Positions 2 to 25,084 of a DNA stretch of 64,000 bases are shown piece after piece. Source of the DNA: Ruminococcus sp. GTDB lineage: Bacteria > Bacillota > Clostridia > Oscillospirales > Acutalibacteraceae. The notes beneath the pieces were generated by a model. The model did no database searches. It was not told where the DNA came from and saw only the letters and a program-made list of their open reading frames with translations. The stretch is taken from contig JAMPDR010000002.1 of NCBI GenBank assembly GCA_023665555.1, forward strand, positions 2,837-66,836, given 5' to 3'. Every line of letters starts with the position of its first letter. The stretch's first letter is position 1. The position numbers and the translations under genes are program-made.

Positions 2-3000
2 TCTGCAGTAGATGATGATGTTGAAGGCACATGGCATATTACAAACAGAATGGGTCTTTACAAATCATTTGCAGCTCTCATGGGACCGCTTTCAGCAATT
101 CTTGCTGTTTTATTGACAGGTGAAGGAAAGTCAGTTAACGGTGCACTCGGCGGTATTGATATTTCAATTACAATCAATAACGCAGGTGACGCACTTTATG
201 ACAGACTCTTTGTTCCTCTTTATACACTTCTTGGCATCGATAATTTCCACACAAAAGCAGAAATTTTTGATGCAACAGAAACCGGAACAGTAGCAGGTGA
301 CTGTAAAGCTATTGTTGGTAAGAATCTTCCGAGCAATGATTATAGATACGGTGTTCTTCTTTGGGACTACATTCTCGGACCAATCATGGATTGGCTTGAA
401 AACGAACTGTTCGTTAACCCGATTCAGACTATCCTTAATATACTTCCGAATTTGCTCGGAATGCTCGAATATGACCAGCTTCTTCCGAAACTCAACAATC
501 TCGCAGTAAGTATCAGCGTTTTGGGTATAAGTGTTTATACTCTTAACGTTTCAGAAATCGTTCTTCCTCTTCTTGAACAGAACGGTATTAACCTTAACGG
601 CGGTATTAAGGGTATCCTTGCATCACTTCTCACTGCAAAGGCAACAACATCTTATCCGGGTATTGGTACAGGTGTTCTTATGGCAACCGAAACGGATGCA
701 ACAGGTGCGAAAGTTGCAAGCAAAACCCGTGCAGCAACCTATTCTTATGGCGGAAGAACCTATTGGTTCACCAATATTGGTTTGCTGACGCAGACGCTTT
801 ATACAGCATTGGGTGACGGAGTACTAACATGGCTGTTTACCGATCCTGATACGAAAAATAATACAATTTCAAATGGTGCTGAAGGCGTATGTCCGCTTAC
901 TTTGCCTGTTAACAGATTCATGGCGGCAGGTACAGTTAAAGAAACACAATTCAAAACCGGTTACGCGTCAAATGATACATCATCGCAAACACTCACTTTC
1001 TACGACATTAAGGTTGATCCCGGCGACAGCTTGCTGACATTGTTCCGCTGGTTGCTGGATGACGGTACACTGTATATCATCAAACCTCTTCTCGATGGTA
1101 TTATTGCACCAAGTGATGACGGCACAAGTATTCTTGACACTGTTTTCCCGATTCTTGACGGTCAGGCAGACACTCTTATGGCAGTTCTTATCTGCTTGCT
1201 CAACGAATATAATGTTGGCTATATTGAATATAGCGACCCTGTTAAGGCTGGCGATTTCATCCGCCTTGGCTATCTCGGCTCAGGAAATACACCTCAGTTT
1301 GTACTCGGCAAGTATCTTGAAGAAACACTTGCAGATACAGGTATTGCCGGAACAACAAATGCAACGGAGGCTCAGAAACTTGCAAAAGCAGATTTGGCTG
1401 TTGAAAACATTGATAAGATCATCAACTCACTTCTCCCGATGATCGTTTCTCTGCTTTCAGATATCCTTGATCAGTATGGTTTCGGCGAGGTTGCAACTCA
1501 GGTTAAAAACGGCGAACTTACAACAATTCCGCAGATTCTTTCTGCAATCTTCATTGATAATGACTTCCTCAACATCGTTATGGGTCTGCTTGTAGGTACA
1601 GGCGAAACCAAAGAGGACGGCACTGTTGATAACGGTTTGCTCGGCGGCTTACTCGGCGATCCCGACAGTATTATCACAAGACTTCTCGGCTCACTTGCAG
1701 AATTCGGAATTGACATTACACCTAAGGGATTCTATAATGCAGCAATCTCAGGTGCAGGCAGTGACACTAACATTGCAAGATGGCTTGCACGTCAGGCTGC
1801 AAAGCACAACAACATCACTGTTTCAGCAAACGTAAATGTATCTCCGAGTCTTACACAGAAAAAAGTTCAGGAATATCTCGGTGAAATGACATGGGGTGAC
1901 ATCAAGTTTGAAGAAGGCTTTAGATGGTTCAATGAAAATTCGGATATAAGAACCAACCTTTCTAACTTCTTTAACTTCCTCATGCACCTTCTCACTCCGC
2001 TCAATCCTCTTCTTTCACTTCTCCTTTGCGGCGAAGATATTACACTTGCAGATGAGCTTACGATTCGCGGTAATGAAGGTTACTCACGTGCAATCGTTCC
2101 GATTCTTGAAGCATTCGGACTTAATGACGCTTGCATGTATCAGGACGAATTCAATCAATATGTATTTGGTTCAACAACCGTTAATAAGAACGGCAACAGA
2201 TTTGCAACAATGATCAAATCTCCGCTTGAACCGCTGTTCAACGCAATTACCAATCTCCTTCTCGGTAGTGGAACTGACAAGGGCTTGCTTGATGCACCCG
2301 TTAGCGTTCTTCTTGCAAAACTTCCGAACATTGCATATTTCCTTTATGAATATGAAACAACGGATAAGAATGGTAATGTAACAACAACTAACAACCTTTC
2401 AATTGCAATTCAGAACCTCATTGCACCGGTTCTTCAATTGCTCGACATCGTTGATCCTATCCTTTCAAGAGTAATTAATCTTGACATCGGCGGTATGCTT
2501 GATGAATTCCTTGATATGGAAAAGATGCTTAACAACCTGCTTTCAGGACTTCTCAACAATTCCGGTGAAGATGACAGCGAAATTGTTGTTACACATCTTC
2601 TTGACTTCGGCCGCATTGCAGCTGATTCAGCATCAACAGTTGTCACAGGCGCAGCATCAAAGCGTGCACGTAACGCAACATTCACAATCTTCAACGGAAG
2701 TGCCGGTAAAACACTTATCACACTTCTTCGTAATATCGTATCCCCTGACCTAGCTGTTATGGCAGGCGAACTCATCGAAGGCCTTATAAACCGTAATGGT
2801 CCGCAGAATGCTGAAGAAGTTGAATCTATGGAAAGAATCCAGAAGATTATCAACAGCATTGTTAAGAACCTTAACGACAGCGGTCTTGATGGCGCAGCAA
2901 AAATCGATATTATCACAGGTATTCTTATTGACCTTCTTACAGACTATACTCCTGGTGCAAAGATCGAATATTTCTATGAGAAGATGAATTATGCTGATTC

Positions 3001-6000
3001 TCAGCTTCAGAGCCTTAAAGAAGAAGCAATCAATGAATATCAGATCAAGCACTCAGGTTATGACTGGGAATCAACAAAAGATAAGTTTACAAAGGATAAA
3101 GTTGAAGATGCAATTGAAAACATCGACTATGTAATTCAGAAAGCTGTTCCTGATGTAATCGCGGCTCTCATGGATGAAGGTGTTCTCAATCTTCCTCTTG
3201 AAGTTGATTACACAACAGGCTCAGGTCTTTGGGCACTTGTTCAGTCAATCGTCAACAACAATCTCTTCAAAGACGATATGATGACAACGATTGCAAACCT
3301 CTTTATCGGTTTGCTCGGCTCTGGCAATGCTTCAACTATCGATATGGTTCTCAGCATTGTTAAGGCTGCCGGTTTCGACATCACAACAGGAGCATTCCTT
3401 TATAAGTCAGACGGAAAAACTCCGACAGCACTTTACAGTTATATGATGTATGGTTTCGATGCCGGAACTGCAAGCATCAACAGCAATGGTGTTGCAACTG
3501 TTCGTAAGAACGGCGAGCCGATGGAACTCACATGGTCTGCAATTTATGAAAACCATGCTGAAGCAGCATATAAATATGATGAGGACGGCAATCTTGTTCT
3601 TGATAAGGACGGTAACGCAGTTCTTGCAGTTGAACAAACAACAAATGAAGCAGGCGAAACTGTTGACAAGACAGAAGATATCCTTGACGAAAACGGAGAG
3701 GTTATCGGAACAAAACCTGTATATGCAAAACAACTTATCGCATCAGGTTATGATCGTGTAATGGATGGCAGCAATTATGTCTACACTTACACTGATGAAA
3801 CAGGTGCTGAAAAAGAATATAAATCTGAATATGCTCAACTTAAGCAGTTCACCGTTGGCGAAGGCGACGATGCTAAGACATATAGTCTTAAAGCTAAGTA
3901 TGATACAACCAAGGCAAACTGGTCATGGGGTGTTGATGCAGTAACAGGCAACAGTGTTCAGAACACATTTGCGAACAAGAAAGAAAAATTCCTCGATGAT
4001 GTTTGGGAAGTACTTTCACCGTTTGCACCGCTGTTCTCAATGCTTCTTGCAGGCGACGGACTGAAACTCTTCAATGGCGGACTTAACCTTGAAGGCGGCC
4101 TTGGATATGAGAACGTATTCCTTCCGCTCCTCAATGCATTCGGACTTGATGCAATACTTGACTATGTAAACACAGCGGTAGATGTTGACGGCAACAAAAT
4201 TGCCGATACACTCAACGAAGGCAAAGCTGAAAAGGATAAACTTCCGACATCACTTATGTCACCGGCTGAGTACTATAGCCATGTATATAAAGACGGAAAG
4301 CTTGATAAAGATGGCATGGGCGACGCAGTTAAGATTATCATTAACTACGTATTCAACTTCCTTGAGATTCTTCTCACCTGCCCGGTTTCAACACTTTCAA
4401 CAGCTCTTCCGACACTCGCCTACTTTATCTACGGCGACGGTCTGACCACATTGGTTTCTAACCTCCTCATTCCGATTACAACACTCACAGACAGACTTAA
4501 GGAAATTATTAACCTCGACCTTAATGCACTTGGTGCAGGTCTTGTTGATATGCTTGCTACAGGTTCATGGGAATCATTCCAGGAAGCTTTGCAGAGTTAT
4601 GTAACAGTTGACGAGGAAACAGGCGACGTTATCGTTAATGAAATTGAAGCAAAATCATTTACTGATTCACTTCTTTCATTCATTGGTTCAATTGAATTCG
4701 ACCTTTCAGGTATTCTTGCTCCGAAAGATGTTGAAATCACAGAAGAAAACAAAGCAGAATATATGCACAGCCTTGTTCTATTCCTCGACCCCGATGCAGA
4801 AGCAGAAGCTAAAGCTTTCATAGCTGAAGAAAAGACTGATGAAGCACGCAAGGTTCGCGGTGATGCTGTTAAGAATTTCTTCAAGTCAATTGCTGCTCTC
4901 GGCGATCCGATTGAAGGCGGCGAACGCGTTGCAATCGACAACAAGGGTCAGGTTAAAGTAAGCAAAGCAGAAATTCTGATGTTTATCCTCGATTTCGCAT
5001 TCCAGAACACAACACTTAAAGAGGTGCTCGGCGGAGTTCTCGGATATGACATTTCAGATGAAAACGGTGACGATGCTGAACTTCTTGATCAGATTATCAC
5101 AAACGTATTCAACAACCCGGATGTACTTGTTGAAGTTATCGTAGATCTTTTAACAACTTATAATGTTAAAGATCAGATCAAAGTAAACTACACACCAATC
5201 GAAAGAGAAACTCATGCTGAATTCTATGAAGATGCAGGTTACACCGAAGACGATATTATCGAAGCAGTCCAGAAGGGCGAAGATGTTTCTGAACTTTCAC
5301 GTATCAAGACATCTGCTGCAATCGATAACCTCGATAAACTTGTAGGTACAATTCTCAACCTCTTCAAAGAGCAGCTTACAACACAGGATGATCCTGCAAC
5401 ACCTGATAAAGATGAAACAGGTCTTCTTGCTAAGATTGGTCTTACCGCAAACGATGATATTACACTCAAAGCAGCTGTTGACGCACTTCTTAAGAATTTC
5501 CTTTACAAGGATGAAACACTCAACAGTTTGATGAGCATGCTTGTCAATGCTCTTGGCTCAGACAGCATGTCACAAATGGTTAACATCATTGTTAGTATTC
5601 TTGAAGGCGCAGGCTACTCACTTACTCCGCAAACATTCGCTAATAACGTTCCGGCTCTTAAGGACATTATCGGCGATGCTAAAAAATGGAGTCAGGTTGC
5701 AAATGCTAACCTTGAATTCGTTTACAGTTATAAAGACGGTGAAAACACTGTAAATCTTTATAGCAAAAACGAAAACGAAACAGAAATCGACGGCCATGCA
5801 GTAACTCCGGTTTACAAGCAGGCAACAGATAAGGATGGCAACGCACTTTGGGAAGATGAAGATCAGACGATCCCGACTTACTCAACCACACGTGAAAAAT
5901 CAGCTCGTATCCATGCAACATGGAACATCACAAATCGTGAAGAGTTTATCAACACAGTATGGTCACTCATTAAGCCGCTTGCAAGCATCTTCGAAGTTCT

Positions 6001-12000: not shown

Positions 12001-15000
12001 GAGCGAAGCACACAAGGATGATATCCTTTCAGTTAAGGAATTCAATGAAATCACAAGCATTGATGTAATGCTCAAATATGTTGTTGATGTTGTATTCATG
12101 ATCGTTGACGATCTTACAACTCAGCCGATTCAGTTCCTTTCACACAACCTTGCATCACTTGTATACTTCCTTGCAAATGATGGTTTGTATAACCTTGTTG
12201 ATGCAATCCTCCAGCTTGTAAACTCAATCTTGGCAATGACCGATCCGCTCTATAAGCAGAACGGCATCAGAATCCAGCTTGATATTCTTAAGCTTGAAGG
12301 TGAAAAAGGACTTCTCGCAACAATTAACAATCTTCTTGCAAGCACAGGCATTGAAATTACAGTTGATATGCTCTTCGACCTTGCAGGCAGAATGGGTGAA
12401 TTCAAGACTATCGACAGCAAGAGAACAACTGCTGACAGTGCACTCGTTGACAGTCAGGGTAACTATGTTGACGCTAACGGCGATAAACTTGATGCAGATA
12501 AGATTCTCGGCGGAAAGATAACAACAATTGTCGGTGAAGATAAATACTTCCTCACAGGACTGCTTGACTTCATTCGCGGCGGCGATGTACTCGGTAAGCT
12601 TGTTGACGCTGACACACTCGACGGAATCCTTAAGGATATCGTTAAAAGTATTACAGGAACTGACGCAGTAAGCAATGTTGTAAACATTCTCATCAAACTC
12701 TTCAACAAATATCTTGTTGGATATCTTGCAATTGAAGACAGAGATCTCACAACACTTACAAAGACAGTAATTGACTACAGCAAACGTACTGTAACTAAAG
12801 ATGAAACAACCAATGCGATTGCTACTCTTGATTCACTCATCGGTGCAGTTACTAATATGTTAGGTGTCGGCACACTTGACGAACTGCTTTCAAATTATCT
12901 CTATACAGATGATATCGTTAATGCGCTAATTGGTCTTCTTATTGGCCTGCTCGGCGGTCTTGACAGCAAGCTGTTCGACACAATTGAAACAGTTCTCGGT
13001 TATGTCAAAGATATCATCGGAATAGACATCCAGATTTCACCTGAATACTATGCAACACTTTCTGACGAATTCGCAGAATTCATCGGCGATGCAAAGACAT
13101 GGAAAGAAGTTGCAGATCAGTATACTAAGTATGGTTACACTTATGTGGATGGCGAAGACGCTAAGGGCAATCCTAACAAAGTTGAGTATTATTCAACTGA
13201 AGCTGATTTGACTGAAGCCGAAATTGACGGAAAGAAAGTTGAACTTTCAAAACTCTTCAGCTATGCTTACACTTATGTAACCGGAACAGATGATAATGGT
13301 GAAGATATCGTCACAACAGTTTCATATAATGTTGATGATAAGAAAACTATTAAAGTTGGCGACAAAGAATATGATCTTGTTCGTGACGAAAAGAATGACG
13401 CACGTGTAACGGATATAATCTGTGACTATGCATGGGGTGTTAGTGCTGCAGGCGAAGGTGCAGCTAATAAGACAGCATCTCTTAACGCTAAGTCAGAAAA
13501 GCTTGTTGAAATTATTACAAATCTCCTCAAGCCGTTTGATCCGATTCTTGAACTCATTCTCGCAGGCGGCACATATGACTTTGCAACAAATGGTCAATAT
13601 GGTGACTCACTCGGTGCATTCAAAGAAATCAATATCATGGGCGGCAGCGGTTACAACTATGCAATTATTCCTCTTCTTGAAACATTGGGAATTGATGCTA
13701 TAGACCAGCATGCTTATGAAGAAACTATCAAGACACAGGGTACACTCGGCTATATCCTCAATGCTCTTCTCAGCAAGGTTAACACAGTCATTGAAGAGCC
13801 GATAACCTTCATCCTCGGTCTTATTGCAAATCTTGCATACACCGTAAGTAAGGATGGTCTGACAAAGATTATATCTAACCTCATCGCTCCAATAAGCGAA
13901 TTGCTCAAAGCTATCTCAGGTGTACTTCCGATTTCAATTACAGTTGATCTCAGAGGTATCGTTGAAAGCGATAAAGAAGTTCTCAACTTCTATATGGGCA
14001 GCGATGTTAAGAAAAATCATGCTGACATCGGTGTTAAGATAGACCTTGATGCATTGTCACTTGAAAACTTTGTTAACATTGTTATCAAGACATATGCAAG
14101 CGGCCTTGATATCGAATTCAACACTCTTGAAATTGCTAAGTTTGCAGCAGCAACAGATGCTGACGGCAAGATCATTATCAAGGATTCTGCTGTTGACAAA
14201 CTTTGGGATGCATGCACAGGCACACCGGGACACAACATCTCAGGCGATCCGGCTGATACACTCATCGGACTTACTGAAATGATCCTCACACCGGAAAACA
14301 TTGATGCAGTTCTTAAGATGCTCAATGTTGACCTGTCAACACTTCCGGAAGAACTTACAGACATCATTAATAAAGCTATTGACAATCCGTCACTTCTCGT
14401 TGACGCAATCATCAAACTTCTCAACGGCGGTATTGATGTTAAAAACATTCAGATGCTCTATAAGTATCTCGGTTCTGAGTCATATGATTACAAGGATGAA
14501 ACAGGTGAACGTAAGTCAACCGTTGCATCAGCAATCGCAAAACTTGATAAGATTCTAGGTAATGCGGTTCCGCAGGTAATCGAAATTCTTGCAGGTATGG
14601 ATGAACCGATTACACTCATTAAGGACATCTATGACGGACTTAATGCTCAAGACAAGAAAGCTACACTTGAAAATATCGTTAACTATGTACTTAATGATAT
14701 GGTATTCAACGACGATATGCTCAACACAATTATGGGACTTCTTGTAGGTCTGCTCGGCGGTCTTGATGCAAGCACACTCGACACGATTTCAGGCATTGTT
14801 AAGCAGATAGTTAACATTGACCTTACACCGGCAGGAATCGCAGCTGTTTCAGCAGCAAATAGCGATGGGAAGATTGCAGCATTCATCAACAGCTTTGCTG
14901 ATGATAAGGGCAATATGCCGACATGGACAGAACTCGCAAAGGCAAACACCAAATACGAGTACACCTATGAAACCGGTGAAAAGAATGATAAGGATGAACC

Positions 15001-21000: not shown

Positions 21001-24000
21001 GTATGTAAATGTAACGCCTGCAGACGCAGAAGTCGGTGTGACATGGGCAGACGTTCTTAAGGCACATCAGAATACTGATGCTGACGGTAATGTAACAATT
21101 GATCCGATATTCACAAATGCGGGCTCGAAGGACGGCTTTATCGGCGATGTTCTTGACATGCTCCTTCCGCTTGAAAACATCCTTGCATTCTTGCTCACAG
21201 GTAAGAACCTTGAACTCTCGGTTGAAGGTAACGAATTGCTTACACTTACAGCAGGCGATGCATACAATAAGTCACTTCTTCCGCTCATCCTTAAAGGTCT
21301 TGGACTTAAAGAACTTGGCGCTGAAGAAAAGGCAGCAGACACTGCAAACGAAGCAATCGGCAACATTGTTGAGTATGTATTCAAACTTGTTGAAGAACTT
21401 GAAAAGGCTCCGTTCTCAACAATCATCACGGTTGTTGCAAATCTCAGCTTCTTCATTGCAAACAATGATGTTTCAGTTGCAATCAACAACCTTGTTGCTC
21501 CTGTACTCGGCATCCTTGATGCACTTGACAGTGTAATCTCAAGAGAACAGATTGACGATCTCCTTAAGAGTTTCATCAACCTTGGACTTACAGATATCAT
21601 CAATATTGCCGACAACCAGGGTGCAAACCTCATTAACCTTATTAACGGATTCCTCGGTGAGATTGAAATCACTGACGATGAAGGAAATCAGATTTATGTT
21701 CTCAACGCTCTTCCTGCTGACTTCTTTGTAAATCTTGCCAAGGCGGCAATCAGAATTGACGACCCGATAGGCAATCTCAGAGTTGGTGAAGATGTTATAG
21801 ACTGGCACACTGAGAAGGACGACGCAATCATGTATGTCCTTGCAACAGTACTCAATAAGGACTTCCTTGAAATCCTTTGCCAGCTTCTGAACCAGGATCC
21901 GAACGGTGATCTCGGACAGATTATCATCTCACTTGCAGGCAGAGAAGAAGACCTTGTGGCAGTAATTCTTAAGCTGCTCAATAAGTATCTTGTTGAATAC
22001 AAAGCATACAAAGTACCTGAACTCGACAAGATCAATATTAAGTATTCAAGTGATCAGACACATGCTCAATTGAATGATGCACTTTCAAACATTGACAGTC
22101 TGATTCCGGCAGTCCTCTCACTCATTGGTCAGGATGCTGAAACTCTCGGCGATATCGTATATCCGCTCTTTGTTAAGGATGATATTGCTAACCTGCTTGT
22201 AAGTACAATTGTCAACCTTCTTGCAGGCTTGCCGTCAGATACAATTGACCAGGTAATGGGTTATGTAAATGAATTGACAAACCTTAAGAACCTTGACATC
22301 TCACCGAAGGCATTCGCAGATGCTAAGTTCGGCAGTAAGCTTGGATTGTACATCGGCAATGCTAAGACATGGGCTGATGTTTGGGAAGCTCACAGCGAAG
22401 AAACAACTGATGCTGATGGAAATACAACAAGAGTAGCAACAGCTTACAATTGGGGTATCAATACAACATCAGACCTCGTAAATCTTGTTTGTGATATGCT
22501 CCTTCCGCTTGATGATATTCTCGCACTTCTGCTCATGGGTGGAACTGAGAGAGCAGCTTTCGAAGCAGACGGAACACACAACGGCAAGAAGATCACCGCA
22601 TTCGATGAAATCAATGTTCTCGGCGGTAACGGTTACAACTACGCAGTAATTCCTCTCCTTGAGTTGCTCGGCGTCAAGAACGTTCTGACTCAGGCTCAGT
22701 ATGAGGCATATGTAAAGGCAAACCACGGCAGCACACTCAAGTATGTTCTCGATGCACTCTTCACAAGAGTTGATGAAATACTCAACGCTCCGATTGCAAA
22801 CGTACTTGACTTGATTGCAAACCTTGCATACGTAATCGGTAATGACAGCGTTGAAACAATAGTTGCAAACCTTCTTGCTCCGGTCAACAACCTCATCGAA
22901 GCAGTTGATCGCCTGTTCCCGATTTCAATCTCAATCAACATTGCAAACATCGGAACAGAAAATGATATCGTTAAGACCTATCTTGGTCAGTCGCATCCGG
23001 GTGTTGATGCAGGTATCGCAATTGCTCTTAAGGGCAGCGACATCAATGCATTGCTCAGCAACGTAATTGGCGGCATTGAAGTTAACGGCGCACCTCTCGG
23101 CTTGAATCTCAACCTCAACTGGCTTGAGATTGCGGCTAAGGGCGCAGCTGCTGACGGAACAAAGATTAAACTGAGTAACTCTAAGCTTGATACCAAGTAT
23201 GACATCTATAACGGCAGTGACTACAAGAATGCAGTCGGCGACCGCGGTGACAGCTTCGTAGCGCTTCTTGAAGCTATCCTCACAAAGGATAACCTTGATG
23301 CAATTCTTAAAGCACTCGGTCAGGACGGCGGATTCGGCGAACCGATTGATTCAATCATCGACGCAATCATCAAGGATCCGGCAAAGATTATCGACGTACT
23401 GCTTTCACTTCTCGGTAACGGTAAGGTAAGCTATGTACCGATTCAGAACAGAAGAATCAAGACTCAGCACTTTGATTATTCATCATACTTACTGCTTACT
23501 GAGGCTAACGCAGATATAATCGCAGAAAATCTTGACGGACTTATCACTGATATTCTCGTTAAGGCTAACCTCGGTTCAATTAAGGATCTTGTTGCTACGA
23601 ACTTTATCACAAATGAATCACTTAACAAGTTGCTTGATTTGTTAGTACCTGTACTTGGCGGCGAAACAGTTAACGATGTACTTGTTGCACTTGCCGGCTT
23701 TGCGGAAAATAACGATGTTGGCACAGACCTTGACTTCACTGTTGGCAGCTTCTATAAGAAGTTCATTGACAACAGAGATTACAACAACAAGAAGGGTGTT
23801 AACATTAAACCGGCGGCAGATATCCTTAAGAAAGCAGTTGATAAGAACGGCACATGGGCAGACGTTGGCTCATTTGCAGGAACAAACTGGGGATTTGAAG
23901 ACGGCGATATCAAGAGCTTCGCAAGAGCACTTGCAGATATCCTCAAGCCGCTCAACAGTGTTCTTGAACTTCTCCTCATGGGCGAAGGCAAAGAACTCAA

Positions 24001-25084
24001 CATCCTTGACATTCTGAAGCTTGGCGGCGGAAACGGCTATGATTATGCAATCATCCCGCTCCTTGAGGCATTCGGCATCGAAGCTAAGGACATCAAGACA
24101 TTTGATGAATACAAAGCAAGCGTTGAAAAGGATGATTCAGAACTTCTTGGTTATATCCTTGAGAAGATCGCAATCTTCGCTGACCAACTCCTTGATAAAC
24201 CTGTTGACACACTTCTTACGATACTTCCGAATGTTGCATACTTCATTTCTAACGAAGGTGTATACCTTGTAGTAAGAAATCTCGTTGCACCTATCTTCGC
24301 AATCGTTGATGTATTTGCTCAGGCATATGGAATTGATATCGCCGGCATGCTTAACATTTCCAAGCTGCTTCACAATATCAATATCGGACTTGATATACTT
24401 GGTGCAAAGTTCAATATCACGATTCCTGAAATCGACTTCTTGAAACTCGCACAGCAGGGCGGTTCATCAACTAAGGAAGTTGACACAGCTCGCTCATATG
24501 CAGCCGGCTCATACAATGTTCCGACAGATCCGTTTGTGGTTCGTAAGGATACTCCGAATAAGCTTACACAGACATACGTTGTATCCGATAAGGGCGATAC
24601 GCTTACACTTGTTCTCACATGGTTGCTTGAAATGTTTGGTGACCAGGACAACAGAGATGGAATTGTTAACTGGCTTGCAGATGTATTCATGCTTTCAAGC
24701 GGTGCAAAACAAGTACTTGCTTACGGTATCAACTCAATGTTCGATGTATGCACGAAATATGATGTACCCGATATCATCGTTGCATCATTGTTCGAAATCT
24801 TCGGAATCGGTATCAGAATCGACACCGCATTCTCCGGTGACGTTCAGAAACTCCAGAAGATTTGGGAAGATATCTTCGATGCTCTCGGTTCAAACGAATA
24901 TTGTGTATACTGCGGTATTGCTAAGGTAATGGAAGAGTTGACAGGAACATGGAACAAGACCATCGGTAGTTCGGATGACTATCATGATGCAGTTGACGAG
25001 GCTGGCGAAACCCTCAACTGGTTCCAGAGATTCTTCCAGAAGATCAAGGAATTCTTCCAGAAGATATTCAGCATCTTCAAGTAA
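2..25084 (+). CDS. Giant repetitive protein, at least 8344 aa (5' end outside window; the frame is already open from nt 2). About 15 tandem paralogous modules. Function unknown.
   Basis: Uninterrupted ORF of 25 kb in AT-rich DNA, with no comparable ORF in any other frame. Recurrent motifs: (D/N)AKTW(K/A)DV, YTY/EYYS, NWGV, L..LL.PL...LL.G, G(N)GY(N/D)YAI(I/V)PLLEAFG(V/L), YFI(A/G)(S/N)(D/N)G and NLLAPV..LL. Ends with the unique tail ...NEYCVYCGIAKV...NWFQRFFQKIKEFFQKIFSIFK, followed by a rho-independent terminator. Confidence 0.85.
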   Translation, partial: SAVDDDVEGTWHITNRMGLYKSFAALMGPLSAILAVLLTGEGKSVNGALGGIDISITINNAGDALYDRLFVPLYTLLGIDNFHTKAEIFDATETGTVAGDCKAIVGKNLPSNDYRYGVLLWDYILGPIMDWLENELFVNPIQTILNILPNLLGMLEYDQLLPKLNNLAVSISVLGISVYTLNVSEIVLPLLEQNGINLNGGIKGILASLLTAKATTSYPGIGTGVLMATETDATGAKVASKTRAATYSYGGRTYWFTNIGLLTQTLYTALGDGVLTWLFTDPDTKNNTISNGAEGVCPLTLPVNRFMAAGTVKETQFKTGYASNDTSSQTLTFYDIKVDPGDSLLTLFRWLLDDGTLYIIKPLLDGIIAPSDDGTSILDTVFPILDGQADTLMAVLICLLNEYNVGYIEYSDPVKAGDFIRLGYLGSGNTPQFVLGKYLEETLADTGIAGTTNATEAQKLAKADLAVENIDKIINSLLPMIVSLLSDILDQYGFGEVATQVKNGELTTIPQILSAIFIDNDFLNIVMGLLVGTGETKEDGTVDNGLLGGLLGDPDSIITRLLGSLAEFGIDITPKGFYNAAISGAGSDTNIARWLARQAAKHNNITVSANVNVSPSLTQKKVQEYLGEMTWGDIKFEEGFRWFNENSDIRTNLSNFFNFLMHLLTPLNPLLSLLLCGEDITLADELTIRGNEGYSRAIVPILEAFGLNDACMYQDEFNQYVFGSTTVNKNGNRFATMIKSPLEPLFNAITNLLLGSGTDKGLLDAPVSVLLAKLPNIAYFLYEYETTDKNGNVTTTNNLSIAIQNLIAPVLQLLDIVDPILSRVINLDIGGMLDEFLDMEKMLNNLLSGLLNNSGEDDSEIVVTHLLDFGRIAADSASTVVTGAASKRARNATFTIFNGSAGKTLITLLRNIVSPDLAVMAGELIEGLINRNGPQNAEEVESMERIQKIINSIVKNLNDSGLDGAAKIDIITGILIDLLTDYTPGAKIEYFYEKMNYADSQLQSLKEEAINEYQIKHSGYDWESTKDKFTKDKVEDAIENIDYVIQKAVPDVIAALMDEGVLNLPLEVDYTTGSGLWALVQSIVNNNLFKDDMMTTIANLFIGLLGSGNASTIDMVLSIVKAAGFDITTGAFLYKSDGKTPTALYSYMMYGFDAGTASINSNGVATVRKNGEPMELTWSAIYENHAEAAYKYDEDGNLVLDKDGNAVLAVEQTTNEAGETVDKTEDILDENGEVIGTKPVYAKQLIASGYDRVMDGSNYVYTYTDETGAEKEYKSEYAQLKQFTVGEGDDAKTYSLKAKYDTTKANWSWGVDAVTGNSVQNTFANKKEKFLDDVWEVLSPFAPLFSMLLAGDGLKLFNGGLNLEGGLGYENVFLPLLNAFGLDAILDYVNTAVDVDGNKIADTLNEGKAEKDKLPTSLMSPAEYYSHVYKDGKLDKDGMGDAVKIIINYVFNFLEILLTCPVSTLSTALPTLAYFIYGDGLTTLVSNLLIPITTLTDRLKEIINLDLNALGAGLVDMLATGSWESFQEALQSYVTVDEETGDVIVNEIEAKSFTDSLLSFIGSIEFDLSGILAPKDVEITEENKAEYMHSLVLFLDPDAEAEAKAFIAEEKTDEARKVRGDAVKNFFKSIAALGDPIEGGERVAIDNKGQVKVSKAEILMFILDFAFQNTTLKEVLGGVLGYDISDENGDDAELLDQIITNVFNNPDVLVEVIVDLLTTYNVKDQIKVNYTPIERETHAEFYEDAGYTEDDIIEAVQKGEDVSELSRIKTSAAIDNLDKLVGTILNLFKEQLTTQDDPATPDKDETGLLAKIGLTANDDITLKAAVDALLKNFLYKDETLNSLMSMLVNALGSDSMSQMVNIIVSILEGAGYSLTPQTFANNVPALKDIIGDAKKWSQVANANLEFVYSYKDGENTVNLYSKNENETEIDGHAVTPVYKQATDKDGNALWEDEDQTIPTYSTTREKSARIHATWNITNREEFINTVWSLIKPLASIFEVLLTGGNLTIYEKVNIRGLKGYDGVILPLFNALAISKLNYAKKDADGNAVPYLTTFYDTYEKFDEAVYGADGVRGNDDDNLKLLITTLTDAIFAFVDSLCDRPISTIATILPYLAHFIESDGLDVILENLLAPVTTITEKISVIYNIDLLKMLKDMLRNLVKSSNAEAGASTVSYDDPSMQAAPVAMIAAYALNIIEENETGISDGSTTLTESFMQNAVAPALNDELEPQKEEAHDADFKFVDIIFDIIANVQINGVALSSIVSDTLFTDLASCAWLPEHDGLPASYVLEVTINDDRRSGTIDRIEAAQYTVDRETVLLKVLDWVVFNDGVRDLVGGLIGADFSQMADLTEEDQNYLLTVLLFGVFEDATAVERLVIDLLSWYKVEYNPLRTDKDYTEFEHATPIDYEEIGIDKTQLEKLPEDLDSLVSAIVPAVMNFLPEGALGSIKLEGTSMEDIVHNLVVGLLADSTETVDGKEVIKEGYATTIVALLVNLLGGNETIGTILPLIKEIAPGVDVTLAYFKQASPAFAEYFKDCDTWADAYEAHKVKVKYDAETATKDENGDPIVPAQDKDGYIYNTAAPVYVLDEDGNKVPATTDSATVKVGETTYYTSAGTGDVIEGAYVVKTDANGIVYEYQYEVKLENADSFGIKSYNDVLALLGDILTPFAPVLRLLLTEDNLVLLDGITITAGDGYDRFIVPLFEVFGVPGVTDKNSLKDLDDGEFVDKVIADINSIITMIVTSPIQTIVDALPQLMFYIYSEGLAQGIEQFIAPAITLVDMVNDITAKKVKAEGKEFVALDIYGLITDLINDKVMVPLDLEPISDLYGLINAFLTADGLENLLAKAIAKTEADKNTTIDLGFDIHGLFKMIIAKCCTIGDVETVRYFGAETHQNGTRTVKGVTANRADTIIQIICETILGGDMIKNLLNSFGVNTEGTIDTILAAITGPENKYVLIKVLLKYFNEYDVETMLMEYLSFEKVDYIYNEYVSGTAFSQRKLRRAIKKFDGSVMNAIPGLIPLLEENETFAALLNKIGGYNGQSLKDLVHEILEAYAFNDQMMSTITGLLVGLLGSDDLGATLSTVLPLVDNIVGIDLTPAGFAEKTSSTALAAYLNEAIAAAPKTDKVLDENGAPVLDEDGNETTAEHVVTWSDIADYYEYYEYIYNVVTENKTTNDNGEEVITYSYETVSMYSKDADLGGTAVEGVDGKTWFAYEQAKDEDGNLLWKDEANGIPKAATVEDADGNTTKVRRTVVNYRNADENAYNWGIDSASGFEAKKDAFIDIIAGVVTPLEPILNFLLRGDDIGILKDENNSNAVLTLKGNEGYENAIYPLLRGLGLDQIDSTVLVAPEIYNKSSGAMTLTAITDAIFLAVDTLCDKPIEFLLTLLPSLSYFIASNGIQLVLNNLLSPVLSLLDLASPIVGSLIEDLIGKNLSPIIGNYMPPESGKEVTKENEDGTVETYKTYTIDEITGIAGENGSNLVRIVNELVGGLLIKNSENGEEAGIIQILPEDVFESYAEHTITVSSHNKDSKWYYWYQDAQGNIVKIAADDYNYNNIRADIIESRYVVDHFSVDIADSLVFLLDAVLSEDLLRVIADLAKADLTDDTNIISGVINNLIDNSGKDGGLNGLIVSNIITALFEGYEVSYAKLNGKYIETNHDAYDKLSQEQKNEVVKIPGKLDTVISEAIPVLLPILKDALATNETDIVKTIVSAVESYTEALGENEKASLNGFVYALLGDLAFSNDVVNSLVSLVVNLLGSQDIINTILPIVAAVGIDLTPQGYLAKIVDSYDENDVRVKAFKDIIGDAKTWKDVVANNTSYEYTYTTTDAEENETTVTYFGAKNLDNANIDGENVELTKVMQYAYTYVTKDADDKDVTVTVFKDKDNETEYKDGDKTYALTRVADKDVQKSELQLVADFGVKDKDTFVSALAALLNPLFEVLQVVLQGKTLTLFRSADGTYKPVDADDDSRDGTELGSGYVEIRGVNGYDQALMPLLDALGIPQSEAHKDDILSVKEFNEITSIDVMLKYVVDVVFMIVDDLTTQPIQFLSHNLASLVYFLANDGLYNLVDAILQLVNSILAMTDPLYKQNGIRIQLDILKLEGEKGLLATINNLLASTGIEITVDMLFDLAGRMGEFKTIDSKRTTADSALVDSQGNYVDANGDKLDADKILGGKITTIVGEDKYFLTGLLDFIRGGDVLGKLVDADTLDGILKDIVKSITGTDAVSNVVNILIKLFNKYLVGYLAIEDRDLTTLTKTVIDYSKRTVTKDETTNAIATLDSLIGAVTNMLGVGTLDELLSNYLYTDDIVNALIGLLIGLLGGLDSKLFDTIETVLGYVKDIIGIDIQISPEYYATLSDEFAEFIGDAKTWKEVADQYTKYGYTYVDGEDAKGNPNKVEYYSTEADLTEAEIDGKKVELSKLFSYAYTYVTGTDDNGEDIVTTVSYNVDDKKTIKVGDKEYDLVRDEKNDARVTDIICDYAWGVSAAGEGAANKTASLNAKSEKLVEIITNLLKPFDPILELILAGGTYDFATNGQYGDSLGAFKEINIMGGSGYNYAIIPLLETLGIDAIDQHAYEETIKTQGTLGYILNALLSKVNTVIEEPITFILGLIANLAYTVSKDGLTKIISNLIAPISELLKAISGVLPISITVDLRGIVESDKEVLNFYMGSDVKKNHADIGVKIDLDALSLENFVNIVIKTYASGLDIEFNTLEIAKFAAATDADGKIIIKDSAVDKLWDACTGTPGHNISGDPADTLIGLTEMILTPENIDAVLKMLNVDLSTLPEELTDIINKAIDNPSLLVDAIIKLLNGGIDVKNIQMLYKYLGSESYDYKDETGERKSTVASAIAKLDKILGNAVPQVIEILAGMDEPITLIKDIYDGLNAQDKKATLENIVNYVLNDMVFNDDMLNTIMGLLVGLLGGLDASTLDTISGIVKQIVNIDLTPAGIAAVSAANSDGKIAAFINSFADDKGNMPTWTELAKANTKYEYTYETGEKNDKDEPIKATYYGKKGETEIEIDGTQYALTPVFAEIKDADGNVTGYAKDQTTKVVLEYTWGVNDKDSFLSVVYELTAVFGSLLDFLFRGKDITILVDGLKLKGANSYDNAIVPLGKALGINGLKSGNQLATANDMLKEVINGIFGLVEDIEKAPLQTILKVLGSASFFIANNGVETTLNSLISPITSLLKVVDGIVSLDDISAIMKNYLGIGLNDITGIAGEHGEKLVTLINNTIANLKLVGPDGETFITNVLDENLFVDLSKYAVKVHDTTTEGEVTNDWDVDSTDVLMYLLKTVFSDSLLDLICSIAKMDSTQGVGAVIKGLAGKQDEVVDIIIMLLTEYAVKYSKIKQQPITKIDVTPKDPLTDENIEKALAAIDGLIPAVLGLVMGDGSSLESLINNLLKDADLGNLIMNMLVPVLASLDIDAILDYVAKLTNIKLDISPEAFAKSDKFGSELKNFIGNAKTWKEVETKYAQYVYTYNTSTDADKPNVVEYYSKNADETTIKVGTEIYTLTPVFEEDNTTRVKKMHSTFDWKLNDLNAIVNLASDILAPLDIIFKVILAGDQIIVLEDTKEDGKRGDDIRIYGGNGYNYAIIPLLEAFGVSPLTQEDYDARVEAEGSSIKYILDTIVKFVTDLLDAPVQTLLEKLANLFYFIGSDGINTIAANLLAPVNILIEEVDDVFPLAITIDLDEVGKTDGKIIATYLGEEHPGVAAGITIDVKAAKLSELINSLISSIKIGDTEIKLSLDLDWNKIAAMMAKADTTDPEGKRVVTVETKQVYTIGSITNATDSDYINIVGDKVDTFVALLQVILTQDNTEGIAKLIKSLIPSDLDPKIADIINDVLNDPDAIEKLIGIVVLILTGEYDVIDDGEFVYKVLKALTSEYDNMTGLNSAITKFDKMVGRAVPQIIAMLADTSKDEADWGILEQIASGIKDNPTLDGIVDWFLSEKVFTEETFEKLIIAVLPTMANMLTADLTKTINDLLGIDFAPQAFAKATLKSGTKTNKFVKFVGDAETWADVLAARAVEKTEFKDGKETTVYELKEFNWGVTDKDSFISKLIQVISPLEKVLSFVLMGTDLEFEIPGIKLNGGEGYKNAINPLMKALGLEDLGGTLKSASTGTEALSNIVDYVFVIVNAICEAPITTVLKVVGNLSYFIANNNVENLIKNLTAPILGIVDRASSLISRDQIDSLLKGLIGLGLTDIIEIGNNKGEKLVNLINDLLKGFIVKDQNGNEVYTINALPDDFFEKLAQYAIRNDLPEGAQVGDDAEKWHVDTAEVLMYVLSTVLNENFLKTLFKMVGLDTSEGIGETLLSMAGKENSLADILLMLLENYTVSYKRIKQADLEPENAPYFGGLDKTNTTAAIKTLDPLLVSVLGILGVGNLEDLIDGLISGADLPNMIMNLLVPVLSGLDIDAILGYVNELTNLGISSIAPTAFNDKFGSELKNFIGDAKTWKDVESQYLQYVYTYNTAKEGEEEKLVNYYSEKDNETTVTIGEGANAVTYDLTRVMIQAVGTDGKPLYEEDGKTPIYSTTEQKMEMHSVYDWKVNTKGDLANLVCDLLAPFDVVFQVLLSGKQIIAIEDKSGERADIRINGGYGYNYAIIPLLEAFGVAPLSQADYDARVKEDGSSLKYILDVLFNEIDAILASPVEQILSRVANIFYFIGSDGISNIAENLLAPVNELLKAVDNLYPIAISIDLAVKDTKDIVKTYLGTDHKDVPAGISINVSGKALSDFINGFISDININGTKLSLSLDLDWNKLAAKMAKTNADGTIAYIGTAQAYTYGECDDGKELKNISGDAADALVTILDAVLTRDNCKNIKDLVDGLLAGAELPESIKKLVNDILSDPNSIKNLVAAVILVLTGGYEVNNLDFVFKFLGTIDYNVDGLDNAIKSLDKIVLAAVPVIIDMLADTTKPEAEQSFIDKLAAGLEKDGKAVTLENIVDYLLGSMVFTNDMMATITSAIVNALAGFLTADLASTIDSLIGVNLAPTAFAETSGNKALKKYVNVTPADAEVGVTWADVLKAHQNTDADGNVTIDPIFTNAGSKDGFIGDVLDMLLPLENILAFLLTGKNLELSVEGNELLTLTAGDAYNKSLLPLILKGLGLKELGAEEKAADTANEAIGNIVEYVFKLVEELEKAPFSTIITVVANLSFFIANNDVSVAINNLVAPVLGILDALDSVISREQIDDLLKSFINLGLTDIINIADNQGANLINLINGFLGEIEITDDEGNQIYVLNALPADFFVNLAKAAIRIDDPIGNLRVGEDVIDWHTEKDDAIMYVLATVLNKDFLEILCQLLNQDPNGDLGQIIISLAGREEDLVAVILKLLNKYLVEYKAYKVPELDKINIKYSSDQTHAQLNDALSNIDSLIPAVLSLIGQDAETLGDIVYPLFVKDDIANLLVSTIVNLLAGLPSDTIDQVMGYVNELTNLKNLDISPKAFADAKFGSKLGLYIGNAKTWADVWEAHSEETTDADGNTTRVATAYNWGINTTSDLVNLVCDMLLPLDDILALLLMGGTERAAFEADGTHNGKKITAFDEINVLGGNGYNYAVIPLLELLGVKNVLTQAQYEAYVKANHGSTLKYVLDALFTRVDEILNAPIANVLDLIANLAYVIGNDSVETIVANLLAPVNNLIEAVDRLFPISISINIANIGTENDIVKTYLGQSHPGVDAGIAIALKGSDINALLSNVIGGIEVNGAPLGLNLNLNWLEIAAKGAAADGTKIKLSNSKLDTKYDIYNGSDYKNAVGDRGDSFVALLEAILTKDNLDAILKALGQDGGFGEPIDSIIDAIIKDPAKIIDVLLSLLGNGKVSYVPIQNRRIKTQHFDYSSYLLLTEANADIIAENLDGLITDILVKANLGSIKDLVATNFITNESLNKLLDLLVPVLGGETVNDVLVALAGFAENNDVGTDLDFTVGSFYKKFIDNRDYNNKKGVNIKPAADILKKAVDKNGTWADVGSFAGTNWGFEDGDIKSFARALADILKPLNSVLELLLMGEGKELNILDILKLGGGNGYDYAIIPLLEAFGIEAKDIKTFDEYKASVEKDDSELLGYILEKIAIFADQLLDKPVDTLLTILPNVAYFISNEGVYLVVRNLVAPIFAIVDVFAQAYGIDIAGMLNISKLLHNINIGLDILGAKFNITIPEIDFLKLAQQGGSSTKEVDTARSYAAGSYNVPTDPFVVRKDTPNKLTQTYVVSDKGDTLTLVLTWLLEMFGDQDNRDGIVNWLADVFMLSSGAKQVLAYGINSMFDVCTKYDVPDIIVASLFEIFGIGIRIDTAFSGDVQKLQKIWEDIFDALGSNEYCVYCGIAKVMEELTGTWNKTIGSSDDYHDAVDEAGETLNWFQRFFQKIKEFFQKIFSIFK
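13096..16377 (+). repeat. Super-repeat 1 (an A+B module pair, about 3.3 kb) inside the giant gene
   Basis: A-module starts at FIGDAKTWKEV (about nt 13096). B-module starts at MPTWTEL (about 14921). GYNYAIIPLLE motif at about 13640 and KGANSYDNAIVPLGKALG at about 15290. Confidence 0.7.
16378..19344 (+). repeat. Super-repeat 2 (A+B, about 2.97 kb)
   Basis: NAKTWKEV at 16378 and AETWADV at 18033. GGNGYNYAIIPLLEAFGV at about 16740 and NGGEGYKNAINPLMKALGL at about 18250. About 75-80% nucleotide identity to the neighbouring units by eye. Confidence 0.7.
19345..22356 (+). repeat. Super-repeat 3 (A+B, about 3.0 kb)
   Basis: DAKTWKDV at 19345 and VTWADV at 21041. GGYGYNYAIIPLLEAFGV at about 19770 and TAGDAYNKSLLPLILKGLGL at about 21250. 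Confidence 0.7.
22357..25084 (+). repeat. Super-repeat 4 (A+B-like, terminal) plus the unique C-terminal cap
   Basis: NAKTWADV at 22357 and GTWADV at 23853. GGNGYNYAVIPLLELLGV at about 22625 and GGGNGYDYAIIPLLEAFGI at about 24020. Non-repetitive sequence from about 24420 to the stop codon. Confidence 0.65.

What the first reader, a model, noticed from the sequence alone, without database searches (positions are those of the whole stretch)
2..25084. Giant gene of at least 25 kb encoding a modular protein of more than 8344 aa with no recognisable family
A single ORF covers 39% of the window and continues past its 5' edge. In AT-rich DNA an uninterrupted 25-kb frame cannot arise by chance, so it is genuinely coding. 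The product contains about 15 paralogous modules of 450-700 aa. Each module carries a conserved DAKTW(K/A)DV-like motif, a Y/T-rich beta-like segment, an NWGV motif, a helical L..LL.PL...LL.G segment, the striking G(N)GYNYAIIPLLEAFG motif and a YFI(A/G)NDG...NLLAPV helical segment. I see no adenylation, ketosynthase or condensation motifs, no YD/RHS repeats, no Ig-like or cadherin-like repeats and no LPXTG anchor, which argues against NRPS/PKS, Rhs toxins or adhesins. The composition is acidic and Leu/Ile-rich with almost no Cys, and is predicted to be largely alpha-solenoid. This is a candidate for an undescribed giant scaffold or structural protein family.
Basis: seen in the sequence. Interest (0 to 1): 0.9.

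Follow-up and report, generated by a model that had tools for sequence, protein, structure and literature searches.

The report
Megadalton modular surface protein, uncharacterised family
The 25-kb open reading frame is a real, conserved gene of an uncultured gut Clostridia bacterium; it encodes about 1 MDa of protein made of 15 diverged copies of an undescribed module, and relatives indicate it is exported and held at the cell membrane by a cationic amphipathic tail, so it is probably a giant surface fibre whose function is still unknown.

Summary
Frame 2 is open from nt 2 to the stop at 25082-25084: 8360 codons with no stop, against 209-1035 stops in the other five frames. It runs off the 5' edge. 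An identical NCBI MAG contig calls the gene at 9305 aa, about 1.0 MDa.

The protein has 15 paralogous modules of 437-748 aa that are old duplications. The longest exact DNA repeat is 22 nt. Colinear orthologues occur in 56 loci from gut MAGs of Acutalibacteraceae, Oscillospiraceae and Ruminococcaceae. dN/dS against the closest one is 0.18.

Pfam, NCBIfam, PHROGs, PDB sequences and fold searches give no significant match. An exhaustive profile search finds 653 cluster representatives, many of 2000-7700 aa.

Full-length relatives start with a Sec-type signal peptide and a helical N-terminal region of about 870 aa. They end in a cationic amphipathic helix or in a TM helix followed by KKK. Small two-module homologues carry sortase-type anchors. 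The tail of this protein, LNWFQRFFQKIKEFFQKIFSIFK, is its most amphipathic segment and its best-conserved C-terminal block.

Best reading: an exported, membrane-tethered giant surface fibre. It resembles Ebh of Staphylococcus in architecture but is not homologous to it. The "alpha-solenoid" idea is not supported, because the module model is mixed alpha/beta.

The parts
2..25084 (+). 3' 25.1 kb of the giant gene: 8360 codons plus the stop at 25082-25084. The 5' end, about 945 codons, lies upstream of the window.
   Evidence: Searches show the open frame. One search gives a 9305-aa gene call in NCBI contig JAMPBD010000005.1, which is 100% identical to window 15206-25084. dN/dS is 0.18 against orthologue L004.
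2..1318 (+). Module M1 (aa 1-439). It is the first module of the protein and its N-terminal part is cut by the window edge.
   Evidence: HMM domain covering hmm 145-476. Window aa 5-1200 aligns colinearly with aa 939-2194 of the full-length relative P0011 and aa 935-2169 of P0009.
1319..3274 (+). Module M2 (aa 440-1091)
3275..5518 (+). Module M3 (aa 1092-1839), the longest module, with a large Y/T- and DxDGN-rich beta insert
5519..7447 (+). Module M4 (aa 1840-2482)
7448..9166 (+). Module M5 (aa 2483-3055)
9167..11221 (+). Module M6 (aa 3056-3740)
11222..12910 (+). Module M7 (aa 3741-4303)
12911..14713 (+). Module M8 (aa 4304-4904), A-type
14714..16201 (+). Module M9 (aa 4905-5400), B-type
16202..17860 (+). 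Module M10 (aa 5401-5953), A-type, 52% identical to M12
17861..19171 (+). Module M11 (aa 5954-6390), B-type, no beta insert
19172..20851 (+). Module M12 (aa 6391-6950), A-type. This is the module modelled with AlphaFold2.
   Evidence: pLDDT 73.4, pTM 0.65. No fold match in PDB.
20852..22180 (+). Module M13 (aa 6951-7393), B-type
22181..23638 (+). Module M14 (aa 7394-7879), A-type
23639..25012 (+). Module M15 core plus the C-terminal region before the tail (aa 7880-8337)
25013..25081 (+). C-terminal cationic amphipathic helix LNWFQRFFQKIKEFFQKIFSIFK (aa 8338-8360), the putative membrane anchor
   Evidence: Hydrophobic moment 0.70, the highest of all 23-aa windows in the protein. Best-conserved 25-aa block of the last 600 aa across 54 sequences, 0.77 against a mean of 0.47. 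Near-invariant in more than 50 species. Sister subfamilies have a TM helix plus KKK in its place.
25110..25143 (+). Intrinsic-terminator-like hairpin (10-bp stem, 8 G-C pairs) followed by a T-rich tail, 26 nt after the stop codon
   Evidence: This is a consensus match only.

Best explanation
The gene encodes a Sec-exported fibre of about 1 MDa (9305 aa) on the cell surface of an uncultured gut Oscillospirales bacterium. NCBI labels the MAG 'Ruminococcus sp.' or 'Faecalibacterium sp.'.

Architecture. Most of it is shown here; the N-terminus is inferred from orthologues.
1. A signal peptide.
2. A head of long helical bundles, about 870 aa.
3. Fifteen diverged copies of a 440-750-aa module of a previously undescribed family. 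Each module has helical bundles carrying the GYNYAIIPLLEAFG core, and many have a protruding Y/T- and DxDGN-rich beta insert.
4. A short C-terminal cationic, aromatic amphipathic helix.

Proposed mechanism (inferred). The chain is threaded out through SecYEG from the N-terminus. The last segment to emerge, the +5-charged amphipathic helix, partitions in-plane into the anionic outer leaflet of the cytoplasmic membrane. It may also bind teichoic acids. This tethers the otherwise extremely acidic protein (net charge about -615, pI 4.3). The module array would then span the wall and project the helical head outwards.

The output function is most likely structural or steric: a surface coat, spacer or adhesion fibre. 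An enzymatic role is unlikely, because no catalytic domain is detectable anywhere in the protein or its relatives.
For: Real, selected gene:
- No stop in 8360 codons, against 209-1035 stops in the other frames.
- dN/dS 0.18 against L004.
- Colinear giant ORFs in all 56 related loci.
- An identical sequence in an independent record.
- The longest exact DNA repeat is 22 nt, and the best module-to-module DNA identity is 69-72%.

Export:
- The window protein aligns colinearly from its residue 5 to residue 939 of P0011 and residue 935 of P0009. Both are complete proteins that begin with MKLxKK plus a hydrophobic stretch plus an AxA-like site, and both end in the same LNWFQ tail.
- The 945 aa missing from the window equals that N-terminal region.
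- N-terminal fragments P0155 and P0160 come from the same MAG assemblies (accession prefixes JBJEOJ, JAFYDS) as the C-terminal loci L010 and L038, and share the consensus MKLGKKVLSCxLAVMMIVTSISVCFTVLAAG.
- 108 of 154 listed family members have a signal-peptide-like N-terminus.

Outside-facing modules:
- The two-module homologues P0003 and P0005 have a signal peptide and a C-terminal NVNTGD + TM + KKK signal. P0005 passes the NCBIfam LPXTG_anchor cutoff, and P0003 weakly matches Rumino_NPXTG.
- 12 subfamily representatives end in a TM helix followed by KKKK, which by the positive-inside rule places the bulk of the protein outside.

Tail as anchor: highest hydrophobic moment of the protein, best-conserved C-terminal block and charge +5. 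72 of the 108 signal-peptide-bearing relatives have such a tail.

Surface-type locus: in three species the gene just upstream is a secreted protein of 1900-2300 aa with a similar tail. One copy has Listeria-Bacteroides repeats.

No catalytic or toxin domain is found.
Against: - The N-terminus of this exact protein was not read. It lies outside the window, and the 9305-aa figure is a gene-caller's product length.
- Signal peptides were judged by eye and by a simple hydrophobicity rule, not by SignalP.
- C-terminal amphipathic helices are best known as cytoplasmic-face membrane-targeting sequences (MinD, FtsA). Anchoring of an exported protein by such a helix is not an established mechanism in Gram-positive bacteria.
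- There is no expression, localisation or phenotype evidence.
- The structure models are of moderate confidence (pLDDT 73 and 67), so rod geometry is not shown.
- No conserved downstream partner was found.
- The specific function (adhesion, shielding or envelope scaffold) is pure inference by analogy.
Confidence: 0.6

Rival explanations
1. It is a cytoplasmic giant scaffold or cytoskeleton-like protein, tethered to the inner face of the membrane by a C-terminal membrane-targeting amphipathic helix in the manner of MinD or FtsA.
For: The tail is a textbook amphipathic helix (muH 0.70), comparable to or stronger than the FtsA membrane-targeting sequence computed the same way. The N-terminus of this protein is not in the window.
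Against: Complete colinear relatives carry N-terminal signal peptides. Sister subfamilies end in TM+KKKK with the bulk of the protein outside. Small homologues carry sortase-type sorting signals. An extreme acidic composition and Cys paucity are typical of exported Gram-positive surface proteins; this last point rests on general knowledge.
Confidence: 0.07
2. It is a secreted effector, toxin or bacteriocin-like weapon whose cationic amphipathic C-terminus inserts into target membranes, with the repeats acting as a delivery stalk. This would resemble MARTX, Rhs or large clostridial toxins in concept.
For: It is giant and probably exported. The cationic amphipathic aromatic helix resembles membrane-active peptides. 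The gene lies next to a TIR-LRR gene.
Against: No toxin, peptidase, glycosyltransferase, Rhs/YD or RTX domains are found. The C-terminus is nearly invariant across more than 50 species rather than polymorphic. No conserved immunity-like or secretion partner lies downstream. The tail is interchangeable with a plain TM anchor in sister subfamilies. There is strong purifying selection along the whole length.
Confidence: 0.08
3. It is a structural component of another envelope-associated layer rather than a vegetative-cell fibre, for example a spore appendage or exosporium, an S-layer-like coat or an intercellular matrix.
For: Export and tethering signals are as in the best explanation. Many Oscillospirales sporulate (general knowledge). 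Nothing here fixes when the gene is expressed.
Against: No SLH, CWB2, collagen-like or known spore-coat domains are found. There are no sporulation genes adjacent in the window. This is a variant of the best explanation rather than a contradiction of it.
Confidence: 0.2
4. It is an assembly artefact: collapsed or expanded repeats, a chimeric join, or a decaying pseudogene.
For: The source is a metagenome-assembled genome. A related ENA scaffold (L002) shows the gene broken into several ORFs.
Against: The longest exact DNA repeat is 22 nt, and modules are at most 72% identical at DNA level. A second record is 100% identical over 9.9 kb. L004 is colinear at 74% nt identity over 12.5 kb. 56 loci from independent studies have intact frames. 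dN/dS is 0.18.
Confidence: 0.01

Closest known systems
Ebh / Embp giant surface proteins of Staphylococcus (about 1.1 MDa)
   Same: Size class of about 1 MDa. N-terminal secretion signal. A long array of largely helical repeat modules. Attachment through a C-terminal membrane element rather than LPXTG/sortase: Ebh has a signal sequence and a TM domain and lacks LPXTG (PMC4856396). Ebh is a ~1.1 MDa surface protein that acts sterically in a size-dependent manner (PMC6548404).
   Different: No sequence or profile similarity: no FIVAR, GA or DUF1542 Pfam hits. The modules are four to five times larger (440-750 aa against about 126 aa, the latter from general knowledge) and are mixed alpha/beta. 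The anchor here is an amphipathic helix, not a TM segment. The host is an anaerobic gut commensal of the Clostridia.
Family members found here: P0009 (7632 aa), P0011 (5829 aa) and the two-module proteins P0003, P0004 and P0005 (about 850-890 aa)
   Same: True homologues. They share the module core (GYxxAIIPLLEALG ... LPNLAYF ... NLLAP) and the signal peptide. P0009 and P0011 share the same head region and the LNWFQ tail.
   Different: They have fewer modules (2-13 against 15). P0003 and P0005 use an NVNTGD sortase-type signal, and P0004 uses a TM anchor. Where a source gives a name it is 'hypothetical protein'; most carry no name at all.
Other giant proteins reported from Oscillospiraceae and Clostridia: the RCC1-type giants (West-Roberts et al., bioRxiv 10.1101/2023.11.21.568195) and the giant proteins of 'Hodor' megaplasmids (bioRxiv 10.64898/2026.02.21.707213)
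   Same: Giant, repetitive, predicted extracellular proteins of gut Clostridia.
   Different: Those proteins are built of Pfam-recognisable domains: RCC1 beta-propellers, Listeria-Bacteroides repeats, dockerins and S-layer or MBG domains. This protein matches no Pfam model.
MinD / FtsA C-terminal membrane-targeting amphipathic helices
   Same: A short C-terminal amphipathic helix with a basic polar face.
   Different: Those act on the cytoplasmic face of non-exported proteins. Here the relatives carry signal peptides, and the tail is longer and very rich in Phe and Trp.

Membership tests
New module family defined here (working name: GYNYAIIPLLE-module giant proteins) | Repeated module with the core L..LL.PL...LL.G / G.GY..AI.PLLEALG / P(V/I).T...LPN..YF / NLL.P | tested here: met
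   15 copies are detected by the iterated HMM. The alignment has invariant Y204, P210, P254 and G377. The profile finds 653 representatives, 368 of them at E<=1e-30.
New module family defined here (working name: GYNYAIIPLLE-module giant proteins) | N-terminal Sec-type signal peptide followed by a non-module head of about 800-1300 aa | not testable with these tools
   The N-terminus lies outside the window. The feature is met in colinear relatives P0009 and P0011, in fragments P0155-P0160 and in 108 of 154 listed members. The 945 aa missing from the window fits this region.
New module family defined here (working name: GYNYAIIPLLE-module giant proteins) | C-terminal membrane element: a cationic amphipathic helix, or a TM helix plus a basic cluster | tested here: met
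   Tail muH is 0.70, the maximum for the protein. It is conserved in 54 sequences.
Ebh/Embp-type giant staphylococcal surface proteins | FIVAR / GA / DUF1542 repeat domains | tested here: not met
   No Pfam hit at E<=0.01 over the whole protein.
Ebh/Embp-type giant staphylococcal surface proteins | C-terminal transmembrane anchor | tested here: not met
   The last 60 aa contain no hydrophobic TM stretch. There is an amphipathic helix instead. TM anchors do occur in sister subfamilies.
Sortase-anchored (LPXTG-type) adhesins | C-terminal LPXTG-like motif plus hydrophobic segment plus basic tail | tested here: not met
   No NCBIfam LPXTG_anchor or NPXTG hit on the giant, and the C-terminus was read directly. 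The small homologue P0005 passes LPXTG_anchor at 17.0 against a cutoff of 15.9.
NRPS / PKS megasynthases | Adenylation, condensation, ketosynthase and carrier domains | tested here: not met
   No Pfam or NCBIfam hits.
Rhs/YD, RTX/MARTX and large clostridial toxins | YD/Rhs repeats, RTX nonapeptides, glucosyltransferase or cysteine-protease domains | tested here: not met
   No Pfam or NCBIfam hits. The C-terminus is not polymorphic.
Cellulosome / amylosome scaffoldins | Cohesin and dockerin modules | tested here: not met
   No Pfam hits.
Oscillospiraceae RCC1-type giant proteins (West-Roberts et al. 2023) | Tandem RCC1 (PF00415) repeats along the whole length | tested here: not met
   No PF00415 hit. 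The paper's description was read.
Phage tail or tape-measure proteins | Match to phage protein families, and a phage gene context | tested here: not met

The most novel reading that the evidence does not exclude
This would be the founding, and so far the largest observed, member of an undescribed class of megadalton envelope fibres of gut Oscillospirales. The class would be built from a module with a fold unrelated to any solved structure. It would be attached by a sortase-independent and TM-independent mechanism: a conserved cationic, aromatic amphipathic C-terminal helix. That helix is shared with other large exoproteins of the same genomes, such as the 2000-aa upstream neighbour. If so, it would be a new surface-anchoring signal for Gram-positive bacteria and a major, unstudied determinant of how abundant gut commensals present themselves to host, phage and neighbours.
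Probability: 0.35. Interest if true: 0.8.

Novelty: new variant of a known kind. Interest (0 to 1): 0.62.

Why it matters
The hosts are uncultured gut Clostridia of the Acutalibacteraceae/Oscillospiraceae/Ruminococcaceae group, recovered from human and ruminant gut samples. A conserved gene of 28 kb is a substantial investment for a bacterial genome, and it is under purifying selection in dozens of species. Even so, neither it nor its 650-plus relatives has a name, a domain model or a structure.

If it is a surface fibre of the order of 100 nm, it would shape adhesion to particles or mucus, phage access, immune recognition and cell-cell spacing.

The C-terminal amphipathic tail recurs on a second large secreted protein in the same locus of related species. 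It could define a new way of retaining exported proteins on Gram-positive cells.

Practically, the module and tail profiles built here would allow hundreds of 'hypothetical' giant ORFs in gut metagenomes to be annotated.

Tried and rejected
1. Pfam, NCBIfam and PHROGs scans of the whole protein gave nothing above noise. Pfam on relatives P0028, P0047, P0061 and on N-terminal fragments P0155, P0156, P0157 and P0159 also gave nothing.

2. PDB sequence searches with the protein and with profiles A1 and A3 gave nothing; the best E-values were 0.78 (protein), 0.34 (A1) and 0.27 (A3).

5. The word-indexed protein database returned only 5, 6 and 3 hits. It seems not to hold the giant proteins, so it could not give the taxonomic spread.

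6. The first genome scan with the 17-sequence alignment failed for lack of a conserved stretch. It succeeded with alignment A2.

7. A metagenome scan with module 1, meant to recover the upstream end, found no relative.

8. A search for a conserved downstream partner failed. The most common downstream gene occurs in only 14 of about 50 loci.

9. Literature searches found no description of this family. The two papers on Clostridia giant proteins concern other families.

10. Readings rejected: NRPS/PKS, Rhs or RTX toxins, scaffoldin, phage protein, assembly artefact and alpha-solenoid.
Full report
**1. The observation**

Frame 2 of the + strand is open from nt 2 to the stop at 25082-25084. That is 8360 sense codons. 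There is no stop between nt 2 and the first ATG at nt 50, so the ORF continues past the 5' edge. The other five frames of the same 25 kb contain 209-1035 stops, and GC is about 42%. The frame cannot be open by chance.

A terminator-like hairpin at 25110-25133 follows the stop.

The downstream TIR-LRR protein was found by exact match in NCBI contig JAMPBD010000005.1 (GCA_023667005.1). That contig is 100% identical to window 15206-25084, and the giant gene there is called at 9305 aa. The window therefore lacks about 945 N-terminal residues. The full product is about 1.01 MDa with pI 4.3.

The genome is an uncultured MAG. NCBI labels it 'Ruminococcus sp.' or 'Faecalibacterium sp.'.

**2. Module structure**

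Self-BLAST and an iterated HMM resolve 15 modules of 437-748 aa. The multiple alignment (A1) shows three parts in each module:
- An N-part of two helices ending in the (D)A(K)TW.(D/E)V motif.
- An optional Y/T-rich beta insert. It is large in M3-M10 and M12 and absent in M11 and M13-M15.
- A core carrying W-G, L..LL.PL...LL.G, G.GY.YAIIPLLEA(F/L)G, P(V/I).T...LPN..YFI..(D/N)G and NLLAP.

Exact DAKTW occurs 3 times, GYNYA 4 times, NLLAPV 4 times, NWGV once and YFI[AG]NDG never. The looser patterns are strongly enriched over shuffles.

Modules M8-M14 alternate between two types. A-type is M8, M10, M12 and M14. B-type is M9, M11 and M13. This indicates duplication of a two-module unit.

The duplications are old. 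The best DNA identity between modules is 69-72%, and the longest exact DNA repeat is 22 nt. Repeat collapse or expansion during assembly is therefore not a concern.

**3. It is a real, conserved gene**

A scan of one genome per GTDB species, using the pattern GY[ND]YA[IV]IPL, returned 128 matches in 56 loci. All are MAGs labelled Acutalibacteraceae, Oscillospiraceae, Ruminococcaceae, Clostridia or Eubacteriales. Where the record title names a source, it is a human, cattle, sheep, goat, buffalo or deer gut sample.

In nearly every locus the frame is open from the locus edge, 10 kb upstream of the match, and ends about 6 kb after it. This is the same geometry as in the window.

The closest orthologue, L004, is colinear over 12.5 kb at 74% nt and 74% aa identity. 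Over 4046 codons dN is 0.18, dS is 0.98 and dN/dS is 0.18.

**4. No known family**

- Pfam-A, NCBIfam and PHROGs give nothing above noise for the whole protein.
- phmmer and profile searches against all PDB sequences give nothing; the best E-values were 0.78 for the protein and 0.34 and 0.27 for the two profiles.
- An AlphaFold2 model of M12, built with the paralogue alignment, has pLDDT 73 and pTM 0.65. It shows helical bundles interleaved with beta hairpins and sheets, not a solenoid.
- Literature searches found no description. The giant Oscillospiraceae proteins in West-Roberts et al. are RCC1 or beta-propeller types. The giants of 'Hodor' megaplasmids carry S-layer or MBG domains.

**5. 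The family is large**

An exhaustive HMMER search with profile A1 against 1.84 billion cluster representatives found 653 proteins at E<=1e-3 and 368 at E<=1e-30. Many are 2000-7700 aa with 4-14 module cores. At 9305 aa, the window's protein is longer than any representative listed.

Where NCBI names relatives, they are 'hypothetical protein'.

**6. Topology signals**

N-terminus:
- Window residues 5-1200 align colinearly with residues 939-2194 of P0011 (43% identity) and 935-2169 of P0009.
- Both are complete proteins. They begin with MKL(G/C)KK, a hydrophobic stretch of about 19 residues and an AxA-like site.
- A non-module region of about 870 aa follows.
- The 945 aa missing from the window matches this region.
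- N-terminal fragments from the same MAG assemblies (accession prefixes JBJEOJ, JAFYDS) that supplied the C-terminal loci L010 and L038 share the consensus MKLGKKVLSCxLAVMMIVTSISVCFTVLAAG.

C-terminus:
- The last 23 aa, LNWFQRFFQKIKEFFQKIFSIFK, have the highest helical hydrophobic moment (0.70) of all 23-aa windows in the protein.
- One face is all Phe, Trp and Ile. The other is Lys, Arg, Gln, Asn, Glu and Ser. Net charge is +5.
- It is almost invariant across more than 50 species whose modules are only 40-55% identical.
- It is the best-conserved block of the last 600 residues, at 0.77 against a mean of 0.47.

Across the family:
- Of 108 representatives with a signal-peptide-like start, 72 end in such an amphipathic helix.
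- 12 end in a TM helix followed by KKKK.
- Most of the remaining 24 are aromatic variants of the tail or are truncated.
- The two-module homologues P0003 and P0005 end in NVNTGD + TM + KKK. P0005 passes NCBIfam LPXTG_anchor, and P0003 weakly matches the NPXTG model.

These alternatives put the modules outside the membrane. They also suggest that the tail is functionally equivalent to a membrane or wall anchor.

**7. Context**

No downstream neighbour is conserved. In this window the next gene is a convergent TIR + BspA-LRR gene.

Upstream, in three species where the 5' end could be fetched, lies a secreted protein of 1900-2300 aa on the same strand. It has no strong Pfam hits except Listeria-Bacteroides repeats in one copy. 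It carries a Cys-flanked amphipathic tail, CxCxCH..FWxxIFRFFHKIIKMFTGEFKCC. This hints that the tail is a shared sorting or anchoring device.

**8. Interpretation**

The best-supported reading (confidence about 0.6) is a Sec-exported giant surface fibre tethered at its C-terminus. In architecture it is analogous to staphylococcal Ebh, which has a signal sequence, helical repeats, a C-terminal membrane element and no LPXTG, and which acts sterically in a size-dependent manner (PMC4856396, PMC6548404). It is not homologous to Ebh, its modules are much larger and mixed alpha/beta, and its anchor is unusual.

Shown here: gene reality, modularity, conservation, absence of known domains, the amphipathic tail and its conservation, and signal peptides and alternative anchors in relatives.

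Inferred: export of this particular protein, in-plane membrane binding of the tail, rod geometry and a structural, adhesive or shielding function.

Rivals:
- A cytoplasmic scaffold with a MinD-like targeting helix. This is disfavoured by the signal peptides and by the TM and sortase variants.
- A toxin or effector. There is no toxin domain, the C-terminus is invariant and no immunity gene is linked.
- A spore or other envelope layer. This is not excluded, and is a variant of the best reading.
- An assembly artefact. This is excluded for practical purposes.

**9. Verdict**

The interpretation 'undescribed giant structural family' is largely right, but it needs two corrections. The family is widespread rather than rare. 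It also carries clear export and anchor signals that make it a surface protein, and it is not demonstrably an alpha-solenoid.

Novelty: a new variant of a known kind, the giant Gram-positive surface proteins. The module family is new and the anchor may be new.

Interest is 0.62. It is limited by the complete absence of functional data. It is raised by the size of the protein, its conservation in gut commensals and the lack of any annotation for it.

Noticed in passing
window 36462-39604 (+): A type II restriction-modification cassette: a C5 cytosine methyltransferase, an NgoFVII-type PLD-family restriction endonuclease and a second C5 methyltransferase.
   Followed up: no
window 25206-26948 (-): A protein with an N-terminal TIR domain fused to BspA-type leucine-rich repeats, convergent with the giant gene. 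NCBI names it 'leucine-rich repeat protein'. It could be a defence or signalling protein, and it is not conserved next to the giant gene in other species.
   Followed up: partly
window 40000-44000, including ORF 41203-42117 (-): A large serine-recombinase fragment with Recombinase and Zn-ribbon domains but no catalytic N-domain detected. It lies in a stretch with a sharp AT-skew excursion of -0.26. This may be a remnant or boundary of a mobile element next to the R-M cassette.
   Followed up: no
window 61061-62314 (-): A 417-aa protein whose C-terminus matches the Card1-like endonuclease domain exactly at the Pfam cutoff of 26.4 bits. It may be a cyclic-oligonucleotide-responsive effector.
   Followed up: no
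L061 2764-9324, L062 3987-9617, L063 2389-9405 (related species, just upstream of the giant gene): A conserved secreted protein of 1900-2300 aa with a Cys-flanked amphipathic C-terminal tail, CxCxCH..FWxxIFRFFHKIIKMFTGEFKCC. One copy has Listeria-Bacteroides repeats. The tail type seems to be shared by several large exoproteins. A similar Cys-flanked variant ends family member P0046.
   Followed up: partly
window 2-25081, beta-rich inserts of modules M2-M9, M11, M13 and M14: The motif D-x-[DN]-G-[NDKE] (for example DADGN, DKDGN, DENGE) occurs 21 times against 2.1 expected from shuffles. It could be a calcium-binding or tight-turn motif.
   Followed up: partly
L035 and L047 (both from MAG JAFUQS01, roe deer rectum): Two different contigs of one MAG each carry a complete C-terminal end of a giant family member, with slightly different tails. 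Either the genome has two paralogous giant genes or the bin is mixed.
   Followed up: no
L002 (ENA scaffold_10653, 9359 nt): A related giant gene appears split into five consecutive same-strand ORFs, and the scaffold holds 28 N bases. These are probably assembly or frameshift errors. It shows how such genes get fragmented into anonymous 'proteins' in databases.
   Followed up: no
window 52254-54932 (-), 49804-52188 (-), 59452-60891 (-): GH95 (fucosidase-like) and GH2 glycoside hydrolases, with an MFS_2 sugar transporter about 4.5 kb further on. This fits a glycan-foraging gut bacterium.
   Followed up: no
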